Virus genome (UHGV): UHGV-0248979
Length of the DNA stretch: 64,000 nt
From: a virus
Strand: one strand, 5' to 3'
The notes below the pieces were generated by a model. That model did not search any database, was not told the origin of the DNA, and saw only the letters and a program-made list of their open reading frames with translations. A program made the translations under genes and the position numbers. Of the stretch, positions 35,710 to 44,690 are shown piece after piece. Every line of letters begins with the position of its first letter. Within the stretch, counting starts at the first letter, position 1.

Positions 35710-36195
35710 TTAGTATTTAGATTGTTCTACGTACTTCTTAACCAGATAACCGAATTCAGCAACGCCGATTTCGCCGAACCAAACCAGATAACCGGGGTCG
35801 ATGTTGTAGTAATAACCGACGAGTTTCTTGGTGTGTGGGTTGTATAGCGTTACGATATATTCCCAGCCACAAGCGTTAGCTTTACAACCACCACTTTCAA
35901 TCCAGATTTTGTTGTTGATATTTACCGGATACATGTTACCGCCAGGGCCATCCATGTAACCTTTAGAGCCGAACATTCCATCCAGTCCCACCGGATCTAG
36001 TGTTTTATCAACAACACCTTTAAATGACTTATCGGTATCGTACAAGTCGTTGATGTTTGGACACGCATTTGGCTGACCTTCCCGAGCGTTCCCATCGCAG
36101 GTAAGCAATTCGTCTACGGAGGCCGCATCTACAGTAGGTGTGGCACCGATAAACAAGAAAACCAGAAAGAACATCAGTGTATGTAAACGTTTCAT
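35710..36195 (-). CDS. secreted small protein with signal peptide (161 aa)
   Basis: Signal MKRLHTLMFFLVFLFIGATPTVDA. Confidence 0.55.
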   Translation of the reverse strand: MKRLHTLMFFLVFLFIGATPTVDAASVDELLTCDGNAREGQPNACPNINDLYDTDKSFKGVVDKTLDPVGLDGMFGSKGYMDGPGGNMYPVNINNKIWIESGGCKANACGWEYIVTLYNPHTKKLVGYYYNIDPGYLVWFGEIGVAEFGYLVKKYVEQSKY

Positions 36196-36213
36196 TGTGA
36201 CTACTCCTTTAGA

Positions 36214-36606
36214 TTATTCAGCAGGACGATTTAAAGTAACACGGCCAATTAATTCGGCGTTATGAAAGAAGTCCACAGCGGTATAGTTACCAACTGATAA
36301 CGGATGTATGCTAACCGACATGACTTTTGGTTGTTCACAGGCGATATCGGTCAAACGTTGGTAGACTTGTGCACGGGTGTCAGCAATGAGTAATCCTGTA
36401 CATGTTTCACCACGTACTAAACGATAAACTTGCAGTTTACCGAAACTGCGCATTAACGTAGGTGTCTCATCCGGGTTGATAATCGGTGAGTCAGGAGCGG
36501 GTTCGTAATGGTTGACATCCGAACCGCCGAAAGCGTAAGTGCCAGTAATGCCGATTGCACAGAAAACAATGATAGTATAAAGTATAGTTCTAATATTCAT
36601 TTTCAC
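36214..36606 (-). CDS. secreted small protein with signal peptide (130 aa)
   Basis: Signal MKMNIRTILYTIIVFCAIGITGTYA. Confidence 0.55.
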   Translation of the reverse strand: MKMNIRTILYTIIVFCAIGITGTYAFGGSDVNHYEPAPDSPIINPDETPTLMRSFGKLQVYRLVRGETCTGLLIADTRAQVYQRLTDIACEQPKVMSVSIHPLSVGNYTAVDFFHNAELIGRVTLNRPAE

Positions 36607-36628
36607 GCACTCTAAAAAAGATTAATAC

Positions 36629-37090
36629 TTATTTGTTAGGACGGGTGTGTCCACAGTTCTGGAAGAAAGTTTCAGATAGACGTTCGCCTTCTACGGTAAA
36701 GTTAGCGGCGTCATTACCATTGATACTCACGCTGAAATTTTTGGCATTACCGATAGCATTAACGAAAGCAACCCAAGCGAGTTCTGCTTTGTCACTACCA
36801 TCCACGGTAGGGATGTTATAGGTTTTGCCGTTTACGACAATATCCATCGTGTTATCTTCAGCGTTAGTTGCACCTACAGGTTCCCCGTAATACCAAACCA
36901 TGCGACCGTAAAATTTGCGATTCGCGGTTTCAGTGTCACAGTTGATAGACAGTCCGTTTCCGGTGGTGTCTTCGATTTCGTAAACTGCCTGACCAGGGTT
37001 CTGTATTTGTTCCCAGCTGTTGATAGCGGCGTGTGCAGTATTGAATCCGAAAGTTAAAATGGTTACTAAGAACGCGATAAAAGTTTTCAT
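36629..37090 (-). CDS. secreted small protein with signal peptide (153 aa)
   Basis: Start moved to ATG with SD AAGGAG giving signal MKTFIAFLVTILTFGFNTAHA. Confidence 0.55.
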   Translation of the reverse strand: MKTFIAFLVTILTFGFNTAHAAINSWEQIQNPGQAVYEIEDTTGNGLSINCDTETANRKFYGRMVWYYGEPVGATNAEDNTMDIVVNGKTYNIPTVDGSDKAELAWVAFVNAIGNAKNFSVSINGNDAANFTVEGERLSETFFQNCGHTRPNK

Positions 37091-37136
37091 TGAAATGCTC
37101 CTTCGGGTTATGGGAAAGTTCCCACAAATCATGAAA

Positions 37137-37508
37137 TTAAATGAGAAAGTGGGCAACTCTTTTAATCTGTCTATAACTATCATCGATACCTCTTATTATT
37201 TCCAGACGTTCTTCTGAAGAAAGGCATTGGTTAATGTCTTTGTCAAGATTGAACAATGTCATGAGTTTTGCAATCGAAACTGCCAGGTTGTCCGATAGCT
37301 CGTTGTTTTTACGCCATTCTTCGTTACGGAAAATACAGATAAGGTCTTTCACCTGGTTTTCAGCGAGCGGTTTGGCTAACTGTGCGTCGCGCTGTTCGAG
37401 AAGGTATGCTTCGTTGGTAAGTAATTGTTTCAGGTCTTCTGGGTAAAGGGCAGCGCGAGTAACGATCAGTAATACAACAAACGGGTCTTTGAACAATTCG
37501 TTTTTCAT
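37137..37508 (-). CDS. hypothetical protein (123 aa)
   Basis: Start moved to ATG with SD AGGAGA. Confidence 0.5.
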   Translation of the reverse strand: MKNELFKDPFVVLLIVTRAALYPEDLKQLLTNEAYLLEQRDAQLAKPLAENQVKDLICIFRNEEWRKNNELSDNLAVSIAKLMTLFNLDKDINQCLSSEERLEIIRGIDDSYRQIKRVAHFLI

Positions 37509-37546
37509 CTTTAGTTCTCCTAAAATGGTTTCGTTAAGTGAGAGTA

Positions 37547-37571
37547 ACTGAACTCTCACCTAAGTAATATA
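37547..37571. promoter_or_regulatory. conserved 25-nt AT-rich element CACCTAAGTAATATATATCTGAAAT (copy 1), promoter-like
   Basis: Near-identical (24/25) to copy at 41946-41970; 39 nt upstream of the minus gene start at 37508. Confidence 0.4.
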
Positions 37572-37612
37572 TATCTGAAATTATTTTTAATGTTGACGAA
37601 CAAAAAATAAAA

Positions 37613-37632
37613 GGTGGGGGTAAACCCCCACC
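37613..37632 (-). terminator. hairpin GGTGGGGG-TAAA-CCCCCACC
   Basis: 8-bp stem, A-run upstream on plus strand. Confidence 0.55.
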
Positions 37633-37636
37633 GACG

Positions 37637-38215
37637 TTATACATCGAACCGATACTGCCGGGAGTTAATGAGGAACTCAGTATTCAGCTCAATCCATTCG
37701 AGTAAATCCCCCAACGGTAATCGGTTTGGGTTTTCTAACTCGATAGATGCAACCGGATAAGAGTTTACTAATTCCGTAATCGCCTCAATGCCCTCTTGCG
37801 TTCCATCGTCTTCTAAGGTGATTGTAAACGGCATATCGGTACGTTCCGCATTAGGATTGTACAAACTGACTTTCGTTGCTTGCACAAACGCAGTCAGGTC
37901 GTCTCGCATAATGCGAATATCTGGCGCTAGAACTACCCAGAGATGTTGCCCTGGCTGGAGTTTACGTTTTGCGTAGTTTACGAAAGGACTTGCCGTCAAG
38001 TTATCTAAACCACAACAGATGTTACGTAAACGAATTCCGCGCGGATCTTTGTAATCCACGTCGAAAATCCCCACAGGTTCATTCGCTGCCCGCTTTATCA
38101 GAAAGGCTAATACCGTGTCCGCTCTTTCTGGTAAGGAAAGCTCTATTCCCTCAAGCTCCCCATCGACGAGATTTTCTAACCAAACGTCTTTTCGCATTTC
38201 TATTAATCGGTACAC
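37637..38215 (-). CDS. hypothetical protein (192 aa)
   Basis: ORF. Confidence 0.5.
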   Translation of the reverse strand: MYRLIEMRKDVWLENLVDGELEGIELSLPERADTVLAFLIKRAANEPVGIFDVDYKDPRGIRLRNICCGLDNLTASPFVNYAKRKLQPGQHLWVVLAPDIRIMRDDLTAFVQATKVSLYNPNAERTDMPFTITLEDDGTQEGIEAITELVNSYPVASIELENPNRLPLGDLLEWIELNTEFLINSRQYRFDV

Positions 38216-38227
38216 GGTTCCACCTCA

Positions 38228-39001
38228 CTAATAATTAAGTTTTACATCGGCAATAAACAGCAACTGTTTACCGTGTTGCTGCACTTCTTTCCAACCTAGT
38301 TTCATAGCAGCGTCAACAACATCTATCATGCTGTAACGAGACATCAACGCGGTTGATTTTGTTCCTGACATTAAGTAAAGCGGCTCGTTGGGGCAACGGT
38401 CGCGTGCATCAGGAAGTTCCCGAGAGACTGCTGAGCCTTCGGGTACGGTAACAACATGAATCACGGTAAATGGTCTTTTGTGGGTTAAATAAATACGAAA
38501 CCCAACGTGTTCAGACTCATGAAAGACTTTCTTTACAACCACATCTTTTAGTGTCGTCTGAACATCAATCCCAGGTAATATCGTGGATTCGCGAGAAACA
38601 AAACAACGACTATTTTCAACCATGGAGAAATAATTACGTATCGGTAAACTGGCGTTATGATCGCGCAGTTTTTTGCTCAGTAGATCGAAGTTCAGTTCTT
38701 TAACTTTCTCTAGCCATTCTTTGGCTTGTTGTATGTAATAACTACCAACGGTGCGATAAGTCAATACCTTGCCTGTGCTTACTTTCCAAAGTTTAACGCT
38801 TAGTGAATTCGGCTTATAGCGACGATACTCACCCCGCGTATAGTTGATGCGCTCGTAACGCTCTACATCGTCAACGGGCGCAGATTCGATCGATTGTAAT
38901 TGCAACGTACGATCTAATCTATCGGCGAATAGTAGTGATGTTAGCGGACCTTCGATCAAATACGGTTCGGTTTTAAAGATATCATCTAGATGGATTTTCA
39001 T
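38228..39001 (-). CDS. hypothetical protein, GW...QLLF C-terminal motif family member 1 (257 aa)
   Basis: C-terminus LGWKEVQQHGKQLLFIADV shared with three neighbours. Confidence 0.55.
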   Translation of the reverse strand: MKIHLDDIFKTEPYLIEGPLTSLLFADRLDRTLQLQSIESAPVDDVERYERINYTRGEYRRYKPNSLSVKLWKVSTGKVLTYRTVGSYYIQQAKEWLEKVKELNFDLLSKKLRDHNASLPIRNYFSMVENSRCFVSRESTILPGIDVQTTLKDVVVKKVFHESEHVGFRIYLTHKRPFTVIHVVTVPEGSAVSRELPDARDRCPNEPLYLMSGTKSTALMSRYSMIDVVDAAMKLGWKEVQQHGKQLLFIADVKLNY

Positions 39002-39022
39002 TTCTATTTCCTTCTTAACAAA

Positions 39023-39041
39023 AGCCGCGACTAAAGCGCGG
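39023..39041 (-). terminator. hairpin GCCGCG...CGCGGC
   Basis: 6-bp GC stem. Confidence 0.35.
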
Positions 39042-39068
39042 CAGTTAGAGAAAGTCTATTTTTACTTA

Positions 39069-40220
39069 TTAGAGGTCAGCAACAAACAACAGCTGGCAGC
39101 CGTACTTTTGTACGTCCGCCCAACCGTAGTCTTTTCCGATTATAGGTAGATGTAAAAAATCCAGCTTCTCGTCTTTCGCTTTTAGTTTCGCCATTAACGT
39201 ATTGGACTCCTCAGCACTGAGCAGTAATGCGGGCTCTTTTTCAGTACGTCCTTCTGCGGTTGGGAAGAAATTGTAATAGCTGCGAGTAGGTAAATCGACA
39301 GAAAAACTACGATTGCCTATTCTGGCGATGAACGCAACTCCTTCACAGTTAGCATCTACACTACACGACCATCCCGCCTCCGTTAAAAGGTCTTTTAACA
39401 GACACCACACTTTAAGTTGGTTCTTAGAAACTGTACGGTAAATAGCAAGATGTTCAGGAAGTAAATGTACGCCCATAACCACGTTTTCAGATTTCTCGTC
39501 AAGCAACTCTGGATGCTGTATCGGGAACAATAATTCAGTGATACCCACGTTATCAATTTTGTTAACAAAATCAGTTAATTCATCTTTTAAGGTACACACG
39601 GATTTTTCTCCTTTGTCTTCAATAATCAGGTGGGGTTCGCCGCTAATTAAAATGTGGTAAACGAGATCGTCAGTAGAACGGTAAGTGAGCTTGATTGCTT
39701 TATCACTTAATATTTCGTAGCGGAAGAAACTTTCGTACCAACTTGAGCCGAAATCGTTTTGTGTGAGTTCCTGCTCAACTTTGATGGTTTTTGCTTCAAA
39801 GCCGATTAACTCGCTTAATAACGCGAGTTCTTGTTTAGTTAAAATAGTTACACCGTGAAAGGGCACTTGTTCAAGCTGAAAACATAACTTAGTGACTTCA
39901 CCATTTGGGAAGACCTTAAACATAATCTTCCGGTTGCTACTCTTTTCCCTAACAACAAGTTTACGGTAATTTAGTCCACAATTTGTGTAAGACGTGAACT
40001 GGTAACCTTCAATTTCTTCATCGAAAGTACAGACATCGACAGGCGCGATAATCTCATTGTATTCACTAAGTACACAGCAGCCCAATTTATAACCAAACAA
40101 CGTATGTTGTAAAAAATAGTCGAGGGTTAAGCTTGGTAGTGGCCAAGCCCGATTATAGCATCTGTCCATCAGTTCTTTTAGGTACTTGGCATGTCTTGGT
40201 TTAGAAATAATATTTCGCAT
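39069..40220 (-). CDS. hypothetical protein, GW...QLLF family member 2 (383 aa)
   Basis: C-terminus YGWADVQKYGCQLLFVADL. Confidence 0.55.
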   Translation of the reverse strand: MRNIISKPRHAKYLKELMDRCYNRAWPLPSLTLDYFLQHTLFGYKLGCCVLSEYNEIIAPVDVCTFDEEIEGYQFTSYTNCGLNYRKLVVREKSSNRKIMFKVFPNGEVTKLCFQLEQVPFHGVTILTKQELALLSELIGFEAKTIKVEQELTQNDFGSSWYESFFRYEILSDKAIKLTYRSTDDLVYHILISGEPHLIIEDKGEKSVCTLKDELTDFVNKIDNVGITELLFPIQHPELLDEKSENVVMGVHLLPEHLAIYRTVSKNQLKVWCLLKDLLTEAGWSCSVDANCEGVAFIARIGNRSFSVDLPTRSYYNFFPTAEGRTEKEPALLLSAEESNTLMAKLKAKDEKLDFLHLPIIGKDYGWADVQKYGCQLLFVADL

Positions 40221-40252
40221 TTTTACTCTCCTTTAGGGGGTTTTTTCGTTAC

Positions 40253-40807
40253 TTAAGCAGGGCAAGCTAAGAACAACAACTGCTGACCGATTTTACGTAC
40301 GGTATACCAACCGTGGGCTTTAGCGACCGCGATCAACGTTTCCCAGTCATCAACATCACATTGCTCGTTCCGAAGTTTTGTAAAGAGTGCTTCGGCTTCG
40401 TCTTGGTTTAATAACTTACCTGGATTATCAGGGGTGGTGCCAGAAGGGGTTGGAAAGAAATCGTATTGACGCGCTAAGAGAAAATCAACCAGATACTTGG
40501 TGTTCTCTTTATAAACCAGCGTGGAAGTCTTCCCTTCGTGGAAGAAGCTGCCTGTTTTCCAAACGCTATCTTTCAGTAAGCTCTGAAGGTAATCTGTAAA
40601 GCCCGTTCTAAATGGGATATGCGTTTTACGCGTGATGTTGCGACGCAGCGGGGTTTCCTCTACAGCTTGTACACTTACCCCTACTATCATCGCACCTGGC
40701 TGGATAATGGTATTGGTCAGTACGGTATAAGGACGGACAAAGAAATGTTCGCCTACGCCTTTTTCAAGGGTTTGGATAATTTCATTTTTCAGTTCAGTTT
40801 GAAACAT
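40253..40807 (-). CDS. hypothetical protein, GW...QLLF family member 3 (184 aa)
   Basis: C-terminus HGWYTVRKIGQQLLFLACPA. Confidence 0.55.
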   Translation of the reverse strand: MFQTELKNEIIQTLEKGVGEHFFVRPYTVLTNTIIQPGAMIVGVSVQAVEETPLRRNITRKTHIPFRTGFTDYLQSLLKDSVWKTGSFFHEGKTSTLVYKENTKYLVDFLLARQYDFFPTPSGTTPDNPGKLLNQDEAEALFTKLRNEQCDVDDWETLIAVAKAHGWYTVRKIGQQLLFLACPA

Positions 40808-40838
40808 GGTATATTCTCCTTTTTTTCGGTTTTCTTAA

Positions 40839-41576
40839 TTACGCGGTTTTAATTAACAGCAGATAGTCCTTCGTAATCTCAGCACAACTCCACCCTCTCA
40901 TCGTGGCGATTTTACGAAGATCAATTTTCTCGTGATATTTCAATAAGGGATCGTCTGAGTTAATCTCAACCAGGTGGGTGGCTTTAGAAATCGTTTCCAC
41001 ATCTGGGATCTGTTTTGCTAAGTCGGATGCAATCAGTTCAATAACGCGGTAACCCTTTAACACAGAAACATAGATGCGCAAACCATATAGCGTGCCCTCG
41101 TCTTCTAATGGACAAAGATCGATGCCGGGTCCAAGCAGTGATAACTCGACGTTATCGGGAAGGTTTTCTGCATTTCGGAGTAACCCTATCCCATTTCTAA
41201 ACAGAGGGAAGTAAGAGAATAGTGGTGGTAAAGCCCAACCGTTCCCAATAAGCACATCATCGATACTAGTAGGCGTGTTCGCAAGAAGACGAATGTGGTC
41301 AGCCACAACTTCAAGTTCGGCATCACTGATCAACTTATAGATTAACATGACACTGGTTTCGGTATTAATAACGAAGAAGACGCGGTTGGCGTAACTGCCT
41401 ATCACGTATTCGTCAATCATACAGTCGATAACGTCAGTGTCTGGATAATCTTCAGGTTTAATTGTTCCAGCATCGATTAACTTAGCAGGTTGCGATTGTT
41501 TTAATAGTTCGTTAACAACAGTAGAAGAAAGTTCTAAACTGGTGTTAGTAAAGATATCGTCTAATAATTCTCTCAT
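40839..41576 (-). CDS. hypothetical protein, divergent GW...LLL family member 4 (245 aa)
   Basis: C-terminus RGWSCAEITKDYLLLIKTA. Confidence 0.5.
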   Translation of the reverse strand: MRELLDDIFTNTSLELSSTVVNELLKQSQPAKLIDAGTIKPEDYPDTDVIDCMIDEYVIGSYANRVFFVINTETSVMLIYKLISDAELEVVADHIRLLANTPTSIDDVLIGNGWALPPLFSYFPLFRNGIGLLRNAENLPDNVELSLLGPGIDLCPLEDEGTLYGLRIYVSVLKGYRVIELIASDLAKQIPDVETISKATHLVEINSDDPLLKYHEKIDLRKIATMRGWSCAEITKDYLLLIKTA

Positions 41577-41945
41577 GATTTACTCGCTAATCTCAATAAA
41601 GGGAAGTCTATTATTATGGATTGTAAAAGAGGTATAAGGAAGTCACTACGTTCCTCTGGGAAGAGTATGTCGGTATACTACGTATACCTCCGCTATTTAT
41701 ATCCGTATACATAATGCCCCCTACCCCCTACCGGTATCCCGAGTAGCAGAATAAAGGGACAGACTGTAAAATTTTAGTACCTGTTATCGGAAGGTACTAA
41801 ATGGAGTGTAGTCTTTAAGCCGTTTGTGCAGCTCATTGAGACTTTCTTTTTTTAGTAGACATGATCTGTCTCCCCAAATGGTTTAATCAATCCGTTTCGA
41901 ATGAAACGTGTCCGTAGGGGCTGAACTGGCACTTCAGTCCCTATT

Positions 41946-41970
41946 CACTTAAGTAATATATATCTGAAAT
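41946..41970 (+). promoter_or_regulatory. conserved 25-nt AT-rich element CACTTAAGTAATATATATCTGAAAT (copy 2), candidate promoter for the virion gene block
   Basis: 26 nt upstream of the ATG at 41996; contains TATATAT -10-like core. Confidence 0.4.
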
Positions 41971-41995
41971 CAATTCCGATCTAAGGAACGTCCCG

Positions 41996-42961
41996 ATGGA
42001 GAAATCCAGTGTTGATTTTTTCTCAATTGGTATCGTCGCGGAAGACAAACCCCGTGGTACAGATCGGGTAAAAGTGATACCAATTGAAACTAATTTTGCT
42101 AACCCTACCGTGGTGCAATCTGTTTCTTCAGCAACTGAAAAGACACATGAAACATCTGGTGCAACAGATAACCTAACCATTAAGACGGGTAACACGATAA
42201 CAGCAAAGTGGTGGAAGTTTAACTCCAACCGAATTAATTCCCCTGACGTTAAACGAGAAGATTACGTTATCTTGTTACGTTTGGGGAAAACCGATATTTA
42301 TTTTTGGATTGATCTGAACTTCGCTAACGTTAAGCGATTAGAGGATGCGGTTTACGCGTGGTCTGCTGACCCTGAAAACCAGATGGCGGATGACCTGTCC
42401 AATGCGTATGTGTTGAATATCTCGACGATTGACAAACATATCACGCTAAGAACAAGTATGGTGAACGGTGAGAAAGCGGCGTGGTTATTTCAGTTTGATA
42501 ATGCAAATGGCACGTGGCAGTGTGTTGACCACAAAGGGAATAAGTATTACATTAACTCGGTGGAAGACGATTTAGGTTTTGAGAATGCGATGCTCTCAAA
42601 AGTGAACATCAACAAAGAAGATGCGTTCATTTATTCAAAGCGTTCTATTAACCTGGAAACGAAAACGATTAATGAAAAATGCGAAGTTCGCAATACGGAA
42701 GCAGCGAAATCCGTTACGTTTAAAACACAAACCTGGTTAACGGAAGCAGGGAGTTCGACAACATTTAAAACGCCGAACTTTAAACAAGAAGGGAATGAAG
42801 CGATGTTCACCGGTAATCTGGAAATCGCTAAGAACTTCAAATACGGTGGTACGGGCAAAGGCGTCGGTGTCTTTACGGTTAAAGATGCGGTTATTTCTGG
42901 CATTACCTTTAGCGTTCACATTCACCAAGGTAAACATGGCCCGACATCACCTCCACAGTAA
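41996..42961 (+). CDS. hypothetical protein, likely virion/baseplate-associated (321 aa)
   Basis: First gene of plus-strand block, SD AAGGA; no motif recognised. Confidence 0.5.
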   Translation: MEKSSVDFFSIGIVAEDKPRGTDRVKVIPIETNFANPTVVQSVSSATEKTHETSGATDNLTIKTGNTITAKWWKFNSNRINSPDVKREDYVILLRLGKTDIYFWIDLNFANVKRLEDAVYAWSADPENQMADDLSNAYVLNISTIDKHITLRTSMVNGEKAAWLFQFDNANGTWQCVDHKGNKYYINSVEDDLGFENAMLSKVNINKEDAFIYSKRSINLETKTINEKCEVRNTEAAKSVTFKTQTWLTEAGSSTTFKTPNFKQEGNEAMFTGNLEIAKNFKYGGTGKGVGVFTVKDAVISGITFSVHIHQGKHGPTSPPQ

Positions 42962-43167
42962 TTCCCCTTTTTCTTACGTTGTTTTTATATATTGTGACCT
43001 GACGTTGGTAAAACTTTTTATCAACACTTTTCTTAAACCCATCGTTTAGTTAAGCAGGCCACTTTTTTCGCGCACTCTACTCCTCCCTACGGGGAGGAGC
43101 TATCTTATGCTTCGGTTGTAACACACGTCGGTCTTAGACCACTAACCTTTTGAAATGGAGAGCTGTT

Positions 43168-43377
43168 ATGTCTATTAAAGAGTTCTCTTCTGCTGAGCAT
43201 ATTCCAGAAGAGTTTAAGAAAATCGGTAACGTTAGCGCTTTCGGCGATACCGTTGATCATGTAACTGGTAAACTGGCTGCTGAAGCCGAAAAAATTGGCG
43301 GCGACGCATTCAAAGTTATCGGTATTTCCGGCAACAACAAACTGCACGGTAACGCGATTGTCTACAAAAAAGACTAA
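43168..43377 (+). CDS. DUF1471 (YdgH/BhsA/McbA-like) domain small protein lacking a signal peptide (69 aa)
   Basis: Pattern EF...G.VS...DTVDHVTGKLAAEAEKIGGDAFKVIGISGNNKLHGNAIVYKK matches the BhsA-family fold signature; SD GGAG. Confidence 0.6.
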   Translation: MSIKEFSSAEHIPEEFKKIGNVSAFGDTVDHVTGKLAAEAEKIGGDAFKVIGISGNNKLHGNAIVYKKD

Positions 43378-43427: not shown

Positions 43428-44690
43428 TTATTTTTTTCGTGCTCTAAAGCGATGCATTTCTAAATACACTTTTTCCCAGGGACCGAATGGACCAACGATT
43501 GCTTGAGCATCGTTAATCTTCTTCTGATTATACCACCGGGCTTCACGAAAGACGTAGTTTTGACTGTCGAATTCGGTGGTGTTAAATACCCACTCACCTT
43601 CCTCCCACGTAGGCCAATAACCTACCGTCTTTCCAAATCGATTATTTAAGTACCCTAATGGTTTTTCAGAATCAGGATCGGTGGGGTCCTTGAGATAACA
43701 ACGTCCCCAAACTGCGTTATGCGAAACACCCACAACTTCTTCTTCTAAATACGGATTATCTACCGTAAAGATAAAAGAGGATTCGTGCAGTAAAAGCGCT
43801 TTCAGTGTTTCAGGGTTACGAATACGTTGAACGTTGGTAGGCGATGATAAATCCCCCACACCGATGCTATCCCAGTCGTAATAACGTCGGGTCTCCAGAA
43901 CGGTCCGTGCAAGATCAAAATTCGGTAAAGAAATCATGATCGCACGGTCAGAGAAATAACCGTCCGGTGGCAACCAACGTAGCAATCCGCCTATGACGAA
44001 ACCCACGGTTTTCCCCGTAATAGACTCAGGCAGCGATATCATTAACGTGGAGTAATAGTCGCGTGTAGTGTCGAGCTTGTTTAGCGTAAGGTTGGCGATT
44101 GGATAGGTTTTAACATTCCCTAGCTGACCAAAAACCATACAGCCAATATCTGGCGTACATGCTCTCCGTACGATTTTACCGGCCCCAGGCAATCGCACAC
44201 CTACGGTATCCGTCTGGTGTGGTACCCATTGACCGTTAATGTTGTACAGCACACTATTACGGTATTTGTCTTTCCACTTGTCCTCACAAACGACGACAAC
44301 GTCATCAGCATCGTCTAAGCTGAAATCTTGACTGTGATGGTACCCTGGTGGACACAGATATGTTTCGACAGGTACATCGGCATTAATTGATTGGTAATGT
44401 GCCCAACTGAATTCCAGTTTCGGCAATCCGGTCTTTAGAGTGGGAATGACGTTTCCGGCTTTTTCGTTTAACCAATCTTGTAAAGTGTCTGTTCGGTTTT
44501 GTAGTTCGGCAAGATGGTATTGACTGACTAACGTATAGTCTTTACCAAGTGCACTTAAACCGATCTCAAAGGTGTGGTAGTCTGAACACAACGTAGTTAA
44601 AGGTTGCGTGACATCGATGGCTCCCCAGGTACGGGACTCTCGAGAGAAGCCAAAAGCGCTGTCGGGTCGCACTTGATAAGCAGTAGTCAC
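43428..44690 (-). CDS. hypothetical protein (420 aa)
   Basis: Long minus ORF divergent from tail fiber genes. Confidence 0.55.
   Translation of the reverse strand: MTTAYQVRPDSAFGFSRESRTWGAIDVTQPLTTLCSDYHTFEIGLSALGKDYTLVSQYHLAELQNRTDTLQDWLNEKAGNVIPTLKTGLPKLEFSWAHYQSINADVPVETYLCPPGYHHSQDFSLDDADDVVVVCEDKWKDKYRNSVLYNINGQWVPHQTDTVGVRLPGAGKIVRRACTPDIGCMVFGQLGNVKTYPIANLTLNKLDTTRDYYSTLMISLPESITGKTVGFVIGGLLRWLPPDGYFSDRAIMISLPNFDLARTVLETRRYYDWDSIGVGDLSSPTNVQRIRNPETLKALLLHESSFIFTVDNPYLEEEVVGVSHNAVWGRCYLKDPTDPDSEKPLGYLNNRFGKTVGYWPTWEEGEWVFNTTEFDSQNYVFREARWYNQKKINDAQAIVGPFGPWEKVYLEMHRFRARKK

What the first reader, a model, noticed from the sequence alone, without database searches (positions are those of the whole stretch)
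38228..41576. Tandem array of four paralogs defined by a conserved C-terminal GW...QLLF motif
Four consecutive minus-strand genes (257, 383, 184, 245 aa) end with related sequences: LGWKEVQQHGKQLLFIADV, YGWADVQKYGCQLLFVADL, HGWYTVRKIGQQLLFLACPA, RGWSCAEITKDYLLLIKTA, while their N-terminal regions have diverged extensively. A conserved C-terminal tail on variable bodies suggests a shared interaction partner with diversified specificity, typical of fast-evolving host-takeover or anti-defence families.
Basis: seen in the sequence. Interest (0 to 1): 0.55.

Follow-up and report, generated by a model that had tools for sequence, protein, structure and literature searches.

The report
Expanded jumbo-phage accessory gene family
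Four neighbouring genes of an uncultured 225-kb jumbo phage are real, fast-evolving paralogs of an uncharacterised non-virion phage protein family defined by a small C-terminal domain, and their function is still unknown, most likely host interaction.

Summary
All four minus-strand ORFs (245, 184, 383 and 257 aa) are real genes under purifying selection.

Three of them (257, 383, 184 aa) share a highly significant C-terminal similarity. It is a self-contained domain of about 65-70 aa (β-α-α-β-β), not a 19-aa tail. The fourth (245 aa) does not match this domain significantly. It is instead a remote, full-length homolog of the 257-aa protein with a degenerate tail. The 184-aa protein matches the C-terminal part of the 383-aa protein.

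The window comes from an unisolated relative of Salmonella phage SPN3US and the Erwinia jumbo phages. Most relatives carry one such gene at the same position. Erwinia phage Huxley carries three.

The domain has no Pfam, NCBIfam or PDB match. It appears only in four PHROGs of unknown function. It also occurs as stand-alone 72-130-aa proteins, and the four looked up lie on uncultured contigs, two of them phage-like.

The SPN3US homolog, gp175, is absent from the virion proteome. The array evolves about 5-10 times faster at the protein level than the flanking virion genes. It sits behind a promoter motif shared across this phage clade, probably of the early type. One natural variant has a nonsense mutation in the 383-aa gene.

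Best reading: dispensable accessory proteins that join a shared binding domain to divergent bodies, for host takeover or counter-defence. That function is inferred, not shown. Interest is moderate.

The parts
41950..41970 (-). Promoter-like element ATTTCAGATATATATTACTTA heading the operon. It is followed by a leader of about 375 nt.
   Evidence: It is an exact 21-nt repeat with 37561-37581; 0.01 matches are expected by chance. The core TCAGATATATATTAC occurs many times in CR5, phiEaH2, SPN3US, Phobos, Huxley and uncultured jumbo-phage contigs. It lies at the same position in related contigs and directly upstream of the single family gene in Phobos and CR5.
40839..41576 (-). p245: a divergent paralog with a p257-like body. 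Its C-terminal domain (about 40848-41021) is degenerate: IPD, GW and LLL remain, but the DR[ST]xNxP and GxQLLF motifs are lost.
   Evidence: Searches support homology to p257. Searches show the tail is not significant. 95 allelic clusters.
40253..40807 (-). p184: an N-terminal α/β module of about 112 aa plus the C-terminal domain (about 40265-40462). Its family aligns with residues 210-381 of p383.
   Evidence: AlphaFold2 model with mean pLDDT 79.
39069..40220 (-). p383: a unique N-terminal half of about 200 aa, then a p184-like module, then the C-terminal domain (39072-39275).
   Evidence: The ortholog in L011 carries CAG>TAG at codon 150.
39024..39042 (-). GC-rich hairpin followed by a T-run in the p383-p257 spacer. 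It may be an internal attenuator or terminator.
38228..39001 (-). p257: the positional ortholog of SPN3US gp175. It has a two-subdomain N-terminal body plus the C-terminal domain (38243-38434).
   Evidence: AlphaFold2 model with mean pLDDT 76.
37637..38215 (-). p192: a conserved gene (phrog_20879) that lies downstream of the family gene(s) in every relative examined, immediately so in most. It is the last gene of the operon.
37613..37632 (-). Intrinsic terminator (GGTGGGGGTTTACCCCCACC followed by a T-run) that closes the operon.
37561..37581 (-). Second copy of the 21-nt promoter element. It starts the next operon.

Best explanation
The region is one transcription unit of an uncultured SPN3US-like jumbo phage: promoter motif at 41950-41970, then p245, p184, p383, p257 and p192, then the terminator at 37613-37632.

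It holds a lineage-specific expansion of the SPN3US gp175-like family, from one gene to three intact members plus one degenerate member. The family is defined by an autonomous C-terminal domain of about 65-70 aa. Its fold is β-α-α-β-β and its motif is PDxx[DE]R[ST]xNxPxxL[LM]S...GWxxVxxxGxQLLF[IV]A.

I infer that the proteins are non-virion, dispensable accessory factors, probably expressed early. In this reading the near-neutral C-terminal domain is a shared protein-binding module that also works alone in other, uncultured sequences, two of them phage-like. The divergent N-terminal bodies would give each paralog a different target, for host takeover or counter-defence.

Shown: paralogy, domain autonomy, synteny, fast evolution under purifying selection, absence of the SPN3US homolog from virions, and a natural knock-out.

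Inferred: early timing, protein binding, and the host-directed role.
For: Paralogy and domain:
-.
- Exhaustive HMMER search of 1.84 billion representative proteins found 72 hits. About 25 are long proteins with the domain at the extreme C-terminus. About 45 are stand-alone proteins of 72-150 aa.
- Two stand-alone copies lie on phage-like contigs, next to Dam and N6/N4 methyltransferases, Bro-N and DUF488, or next to an AAA ATPase and a T4-type RNA ligase.
- AlphaFold2 gives the same confident β-α-α-β-β unit in two paralogs, with pLDDT about 72-95 across its 10-residue blocks.

Synteny and copy number:
- One copy in SPN3US, Asesino, Phobos and CR5.
- Three copies in Huxley.

Evolution:
- dN/dS 0.17-0.36; 95 alleles of p245.
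- A natural nonsense allele.

Non-virion status: SPN3US Table S4 lists gp167-171 and gp173, then jumps to gp193.

Promoter. A review states that RNAP-encoding jumbo phages carry a highly conserved AT-rich motif of about 10 nt upstream of early operons (PMC7598289).

Charge: the domain has median pI about 6. The bodies range from pI 4.2 (p245) to 9.2 (p257).
Against: - No partner, activity or phenotype is known for any family member.
- No hit in Pfam, NCBIfam, PADLOC or PDB sequences.
- The early timing rests on motif analogy alone. SPN3US and Asesino lack the motif upstream of their copy, within 3 mismatches.
- dN/dS below 1 shows relaxed or episodic selection, not demonstrated positive selection.
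- The locus sits inside a tail and baseplate gene region, so a role in virion assembly is not excluded.
Confidence: 0.5

Rival explanations
1. The proteins are nucleic-acid-binding regulators. In this reading the C-terminal β-α-α-β-β unit is a winged-helix-like or R3H-like DNA/RNA-binding domain, and the paralogs are early transcription or RNA regulators with different specificities.
Confidence: 0.15
2. The proteins are non-virion morphogenesis factors, such as tail or baseplate-fibre assembly chaperones. Their variability would track variable receptor-binding proteins encoded nearby. The shared domain would dock on a conserved part of the tail machinery or mediate oligomerisation among the paralogs.
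For: The array is embedded between the baseplate assembly gene (41996-42961) and other tail-region genes. The neighbour at 43428-44690 is homologous to SPN3US gp171, an essential tail-associated protein. SPN3US gp175 is absent from virions, as chaperones are.
Against: The array is on the opposite strand to the baseplate and fibre genes, with its own promoter and terminator. Stand-alone domain proteins lie among methyltransferase, Bro-N and RNA-ligase genes on other contigs, not in tail modules. A natural nonsense allele persists on a 164-kb phage contig. Extra dispersed members in phiEaH2 and in another contig lie far from this locus, directly behind the same promoter motif.
Confidence: 0.12
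3. The similarity is chance or the ORFs are not genes.
For: The tail of p245 on its own is not significant.
Against: z = 10-23 for the other three tails. E values down to 1e-24 against independent database proteins. dN/dS of 0.17-0.36 with dS up to about 1-2. Shine-Dalgarno sequences are present upstream of p184, p383, p257 and p192. The four genes are conserved on many contigs.
Confidence: 0.02

Closest known systems
Salmonella phage SPN3US gp175 (SPN3US_0175, YP_009153469, 412 aa) and its PHROG families: phrog_33648, phrog_26772, phrog_24489, phrog_18480, all of unknown function
   Same: Same C-terminal domain (p257 against phrog_26772, E = 2.5e-9; p383, E = 3.9e-6). Same slot between the baseplate assembly gene and the phrog_20879 gene. 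Uncharacterised, with no phiKZ homolog listed.
   Different: SPN3US has one gene with an unrelated N-terminal body of about 340 aa. The window has three intact members plus one degenerate member, with different bodies.
Erwinia phage vB_EamM_Huxley (Machinavirus) gp185-gp186-gp187
   Same: Three tandem genes at the syntenic locus, each ending in the domain (E = 2.5e-24, 1e-17 and 8.8e-13). The locus is therefore a recurrent site of expansion.
   Different: Only the domain region gives a sizeable match to the window proteins; elsewhere only short patches of about 23-39 residues align. The expansions therefore look independent or very old. Huxley has no p245-type member with a degenerate domain.
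Stand-alone 72-130-aa domain proteins from uncultured contigs (for example P0078, P0092, P0079, P0071)
   Same: Same motif and length of the conserved unit. p184 matches P0078 at E = 7e-10.
   Different: They have no N-terminal body. They are not on jumbo-phage contigs; the two informative contexts are methyltransferase/Bro-N and AAA/RNA-ligase neighbourhoods.
Winged-helix, R3H and similar small α/β domains (structural resemblance only)

Membership tests
SPN3US gp175-like C-terminal domain family (phrog_26772, 33648, 24489, 18480) | Significant profile match to the 65-70-aa domain, located at the extreme C-terminus | tested here: met
   Met for p257, p383 and p184. PHROG hits for p257 and p383. 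p184 has no PHROG hit at E 0.1 or better, but it matches independent proteins: P0078 at 7e-10 and P0029 at 5e-10. Its near-identical cluster representative P0050 scores E = 7e-22 against profile A8, which includes p184's own C-terminal domain. The match always ends within 6 residues of the stop codon.
SPN3US gp175-like C-terminal domain family | The same profile match, tested for the fourth gene (p245) | tested here: not met
   E = 0.31 and 0.47 against two HMMs. No phmmer hit to any of 72 family representatives. p245 is linked only through full-length homology to p257.
SPN3US gp175-like C-terminal domain family | Motif PDxx[DE]R[ST]xNxP ... GWxxVxxxGxQLLF | tested here: met
   p257 has the full motif (LPDARDRCPNEP...GWKEVQQHGKQLLF). 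p383 and p184 have PT instead of PD and keep [RT]T..[EN]P and GW..V...G.QLLF. p245 keeps only IPD, GW and LLL.
SPN3US gp175-like C-terminal domain family | Syntenic slot: downstream of the divergently transcribed baseplate assembly gene and upstream of the phrog_20879 gene | tested here: met
SPN3US gp175-like C-terminal domain family | Non-virion protein | not testable with these tools
   There is no proteome for this phage. In SPN3US, gp175 is absent from the virion mass-spectrometry table (PMC5105663 Table S4).
Winged-helix DNA-binding domains | Clear fold match and a basic recognition surface | tested here: inconclusive
Known defence-system proteins (PADLOC) | Profile match to a catalogued family | tested here: not met
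   There was no meaningful PADLOC hit. PADLOC holds defence proteins, not anti-defence proteins. No anti-defence library was available, so membership of a known anti-defence family was not tested.
Jumbo-phage virion-RNAP early promoters | Highly conserved AT-rich motif that is multi-copy, intergenic and co-oriented with downstream operons | tested here: met
   The definition comes from PMC7598289.
Jumbo-phage virion-RNAP early promoters | Mapped transcription start sites and early expression kinetics | not testable with these tools
   No transcriptome of this phage or of SPN3US was found.

The most novel reading that the evidence does not exclude
The 65-70-aa domain may be a previously undescribed adaptor, so far found only on phage or uncultured contigs, that docks on one conserved host hub or phage hub. 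The array would then be a modular battery in which each N-terminal body brings a different host factor, for example a defence protein, to that hub or neutralises it. Copy number at this locus (1, 3 or 3+1) would track the defence repertoire of the host range.
Probability: 0.22. Interest if true: 0.7.

Novelty: new variant of a known kind. Interest (0 to 1): 0.4.

Why it matters
If the reading is right, the locus gives a compact and tractable entry point into the biology of enterobacterial nucleus-forming jumbo phages, most of whose early accessory genes have no known function. It offers a small domain absent from Pfam, with about 70 diverse representatives. It also offers natural variation in copy number (1, 3 or 3+1), a natural knock-out allele and dozens of alleles per gene. 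Together these make partner-finding and host-range experiments straightforward to design. As it stands, this is an ordinary example of a fast-evolving phage paralog array of unknown function.

Tried and rejected
Searches that gave nothing useful:
- Near-identity DNA search of the array against isolated phages: no match.
- tblastn of p245 and of p184 against isolated phages: no match.
- Pfam, NCBIfam and PADLOC on the four proteins, on stand-alone members and on 37 long members: no informative family and no domain fusion.
- PDB sequence-profile search: one chance-level hit.
- Foldseek against BFVD: the significant matches that carry a name are uncharacterised proteins of Erwinia and Klebsiella jumbo phages.
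- Rfam on 37000-42100: nothing.
- DNA repeats among the four genes: none apart from a 15-nt patch encoding the shared LDDIF N-terminus of p245 and p257, so the duplications are old.
- Homology of the leader region to SPN3US gp174: none.
- Conserved neighbours of the stand-alone domain proteins: none related to p192 or to the N-terminal bodies.
- Word-indexed homolog search with the domain profile: returned only 7 fragments.
- Literature search for PHROG identifiers or protein accessions: nothing.

Ideas considered and rejected:
- A phage-nucleus import tag or a capsid-targeting tag. The domain exists as a stand-alone protein on much smaller, non-jumbo contigs, and gp175 is not in the virion.
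- A C-terminal degron. Nothing beyond the terminal residues supports it.
Full report
**What the window is**

The 420-aa protein at 43428-44690(-) is 76-80% identical to proteins of Erwinia phages Asesino and phiEaH2 and of Salmonella phage SPN3US. Its SPN3US counterpart, gp171, is an essential tail-associated protein. The ORF at 41996-42961(+) is a baseplate assembly protein (phrog_3216, E = 9e-114).

No isolated phage matches the array at the DNA level. Conserved neighbouring DNA reaches only 71-75% identity over part of its length. Identical or near-identical proteins occur on 217-227-kb contigs. These come from metagenomes and from Salmonella, Shigella and E. coli assemblies.

The window is therefore part of an unisolated, genus-level relative of the SPN3US, Erskinevirus and Derbicusvirus jumbo phages.

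**Checking the observation**

The four minus-strand ORFs exist at the stated coordinates. Public gene calls give the same lengths on every related contig examined.

Against sequences shuffled 2000 times, the last 70 residues of p257, p383 and p184 are strongly similar, with z = 9.9-23.2 and no shuffle reaching the observed score.

p245 behaves differently:
- Its tail is only marginally similar to p257 (z = 3.6) and not at all to the other two.
- Three HMMs of the domain built without p245 fail to detect it. The first gave no hit at all. The other two ranked it top among non-members at E = 0.3-0.5.
- The p245 family profile nevertheless aligns with the p257 family from first to last residue (hhalign E = 6.4e-6).
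- MAFFT aligns the two families collinearly with shared patches: LDDIF, G[FL]RIY, [IL]PD and GW.
- An HMM of the p245 body without its tail finds p257 over residues 1-184.
- A 15-nt DNA patch encoding LDDIF is the only nucleotide-level repeat among the genes.

Separately, the p184 family aligns with residues 210-381 of p383 (E = 1.6e-12). With the shared domain removed, the evidence for the remaining part is much weaker (E = 0.008).

The array therefore consists of two related pairs, p245/p257 and p184/p383 C-terminal part. They are joined by a C-terminal domain that is intact in three genes and degenerate in the fourth.

**The conserved unit is a domain, not a tail**

Alignment with the single homologs of SPN3US (412 aa), Asesino (223 aa), Phobos (319 aa) and CR5 (364 aa) shows a conserved block of about 65-70 aa. 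Its motif is PDxx[DE]R[ST]xNEPxYLMSA...GWxxVQxYGxQLLF[IV]A.

An exhaustive HMMER search of 1.84 billion representative proteins returned 72 hits at E of 1e-3 or better:
- About 25 are proteins of 184-534 aa with the domain at the very C-terminus.
- About 45 are proteins of 72-150 aa that consist of little else.
- One hit, P0094, is a repeat-protein false positive.

None of these proteins, long or short, matches any Pfam family in an informative way, and there is no domain fusion. The only library hits are four PHROGs of unknown function. PDB sequences give nothing.

Two stand-alone copies sit on phage-like contigs. One lies among Dam and N6/N4 methyltransferase, HTH, Bro-N and DUF488 genes. 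The other is flanked by unannotated genes, with an AAA ATPase two genes upstream and a T4-type RNA ligase further upstream.

**Structure**

AlphaFold2 models of p184 (mean pLDDT 79) and p257 (mean pLDDT 76) both place a confident β-α-α-β-β unit at the C-terminus. pLDDT across its 10-residue blocks is about 72-95. The N-terminal bodies are different α/β folds.

The domain is near neutral, with median pI about 6. The bodies range from very acidic (p245, pI 4.2, net charge -15) to basic (p257, pI 9.2). This fits protein binding better than DNA binding, and it suggests different targets for the different bodies. That is an inference.

**Genomic context and copy number**

In SPN3US, Asesino, Phobos and CR5, one family gene occupies the slot between the divergently transcribed baseplate assembly gene and a conserved gene of about 190 aa (phrog_20879, p192 in the window). 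tblastn finds one place per genome in 54 isolates.

The HMM scan of fetched loci was more sensitive and changes this picture:
- Erwinia phage Huxley has three tandem family genes (gp185, gp186, gp187) at the same locus, with E = 2.5e-24, 1e-17 and 8.8e-13.
- phiEaH2 and a 237-kb uncultured contig each carry an extra dispersed member.

So the locus expands repeatedly, and the window lineage is the largest case seen here. p257 is the positional ortholog of gp175. It lies next to p192 and has the domain closest to those of other genera.

**Transcription unit**

A 21-nt sequence, ATTTCAGATATATATTACTTA, occurs exactly twice in the 64-kb window, where 0.01 matches are expected by chance. Both copies are intergenic and on the minus strand:
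- One lies upstream of the array (41950-41970).
- The other lies just after a strong terminator (37613-37632) that follows p192, ahead of the next genes.

The core TCAGATATATATTAC is present many times in CR5, phiEaH2, SPN3US, Phobos, ChrisDB, Huxley and uncultured contigs of 220-246 kb. It is typically flanked by an upstream A-tract and a downstream yTAGGTGAGA plus hairpin. In Phobos and CR5 it sits about 95 nt upstream of the single family gene. In more divergent relatives of the window phage it is kept at both positions with 1-2 substitutions.

A review of jumbo-phage RNA polymerases states that such highly conserved AT-rich motifs of about 10 nt mark early, virion-RNAP promoters in every RNAP-encoding jumbo phage (PMC7598289). 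I therefore infer early expression. No transcriptome is available to test it. SPN3US and Asesino lack the motif upstream of their copy.

**Evolution and dispensability**

Between the window and relatives L009 and L010:
- The flanking virion proteins are 94-96% identical, with dN/dS of 0.03-0.08.
- The four array proteins are 44-74% identical, with dN 5-10 times higher (up to about 19 times for the two most diverged genes in L009) and dN/dS of 0.17-0.25.

The closer relative L011 gives 0.11-0.36 for the array genes compared. This indicates real coding genes under relaxed or episodically diversifying selection.

Identity differs between genes of the same contig (p245 and p184 at 44-46%, against p383 and p257 at 65-74%, in L009). 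This indicates mosaic exchange. p245 alone forms 95 clusters at 90% identity.

In one contig the p383 ortholog carries a CAG>TAG change at codon 150. The gene is therefore dispensable at least in that setting.

In SPN3US, virion mass spectrometry lists gp167-171 and gp173 and then jumps to gp193. Neither gp175 nor gp176 is a virion component. gp175 has homologs in phiEaH2 and CR5 but none listed in phiKZ.

**Interpretation**

The evidence best fits an operon of dispensable, non-structural, rapidly diversifying accessory proteins, probably expressed early. They are built from a shared autonomous binding domain and divergent bodies.

Nothing here identifies the partner or the activity, so I give the functional part about even odds.

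The main rivals:
- Nucleic-acid-binding regulators. Support comes only from weak fold resemblance, and the domain charge argues against it.
- Non-virion tail-assembly factors. The location supports this, but the separate promoter and strand, the contexts of the stand-alone homologs and the natural knock-out argue against it.
- Chance similarity, which is excluded for three genes.

**Novelty and score**

The family is already catalogued, without function, in PHROGs, and is annotated as 'hypothetical protein' in dozens of phage genomes.

New here:
- Delineation of the domain and its stand-alone forms.
- Recognition that p245 is a degenerate member.
- The two-pair structure of the array.
- Variation in copy number across genera.
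- The promoter and terminator framing of the operon.

This is a new variant of a known kind of feature, a paralogous phage accessory array. Interest is moderate.

Noticed in passing
window 41950-41970(-) and 37561-37581(-); loci L020-L139: The promoter motif TCAGATATATATTAC is shared across this phage clade. In SPN3US-, CR5-, phiEaH2- and Huxley-like jumbo phages it usually has an upstream ATTAAAAATAAT tract and a downstream yTAGGTGAGA followed by a hairpin. It could be used to map presumed early operons in all of these genomes.
   Followed up: partly
L011 6001-7152 (logan ERR7366519_395): The ortholog of the 383-aa gene carries a single in-frame amber codon (CAG>TAG at codon 150). Gene callers therefore split it into 149-aa and 214-aa products. 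This is a natural knock-out.
   Followed up: yes
window 41724-41862(-): The 375-nt leader upstream of p245 contains a frameshifted remnant of a 47-aa ORF that is intact in L011. It is unrelated to the 105-aa ORF (gp174) that occupies this spot in SPN3US.
   Followed up: partly
L140 3434-5490 (Erwinia phage Huxley gp185-187); L037 5065-5661 (phiEaH2); L068 1401-2048: Huxley has three tandem genes with the same C-terminal domain at the syntenic locus. phiEaH2 and a 237-kb uncultured contig each have an additional dispersed member directly downstream of the promoter motif. tblastn missed all of these.
   Followed up: partly
window 43150-43377(+): A small gene of 69-75 aa for a DUF1471 / YdgH-BhsA-like protein (PF07338) lies between the tail-associated gene and the baseplate gene. 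Some relatives annotate it as 'multiple stress resistance protein BhsA'. The bacterial family is periplasmic, and this copy starts without an obvious signal peptide.
   Followed up: no
window 35710-37183(-): Three consecutive small genes (161, 130 and 184 aa) have signal-peptide-like N-termini. Public gene calls flag the third as YfjT family (PF27224). They look like secreted or periplasmic phage accessory proteins.
   Followed up: no
window 37137-37559(-): The first gene of the next operon gives a weak, sub-threshold match to the N-terminal domain of T4 y05I-like putative transcription factors (PF24449, E = 0.021), and a match to phrog_27024.
   Followed up: no
whole window / related contigs: This jumbo-phage lineage has no isolate in the phage collection. 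It nevertheless turns up as near-complete contigs of about 225 kb in many Salmonella, Shigella and E. coli genome assemblies and in one metagenome series. This suggests a carrier state, pseudolysogeny or frequent contamination of cultures.
   Followed up: no
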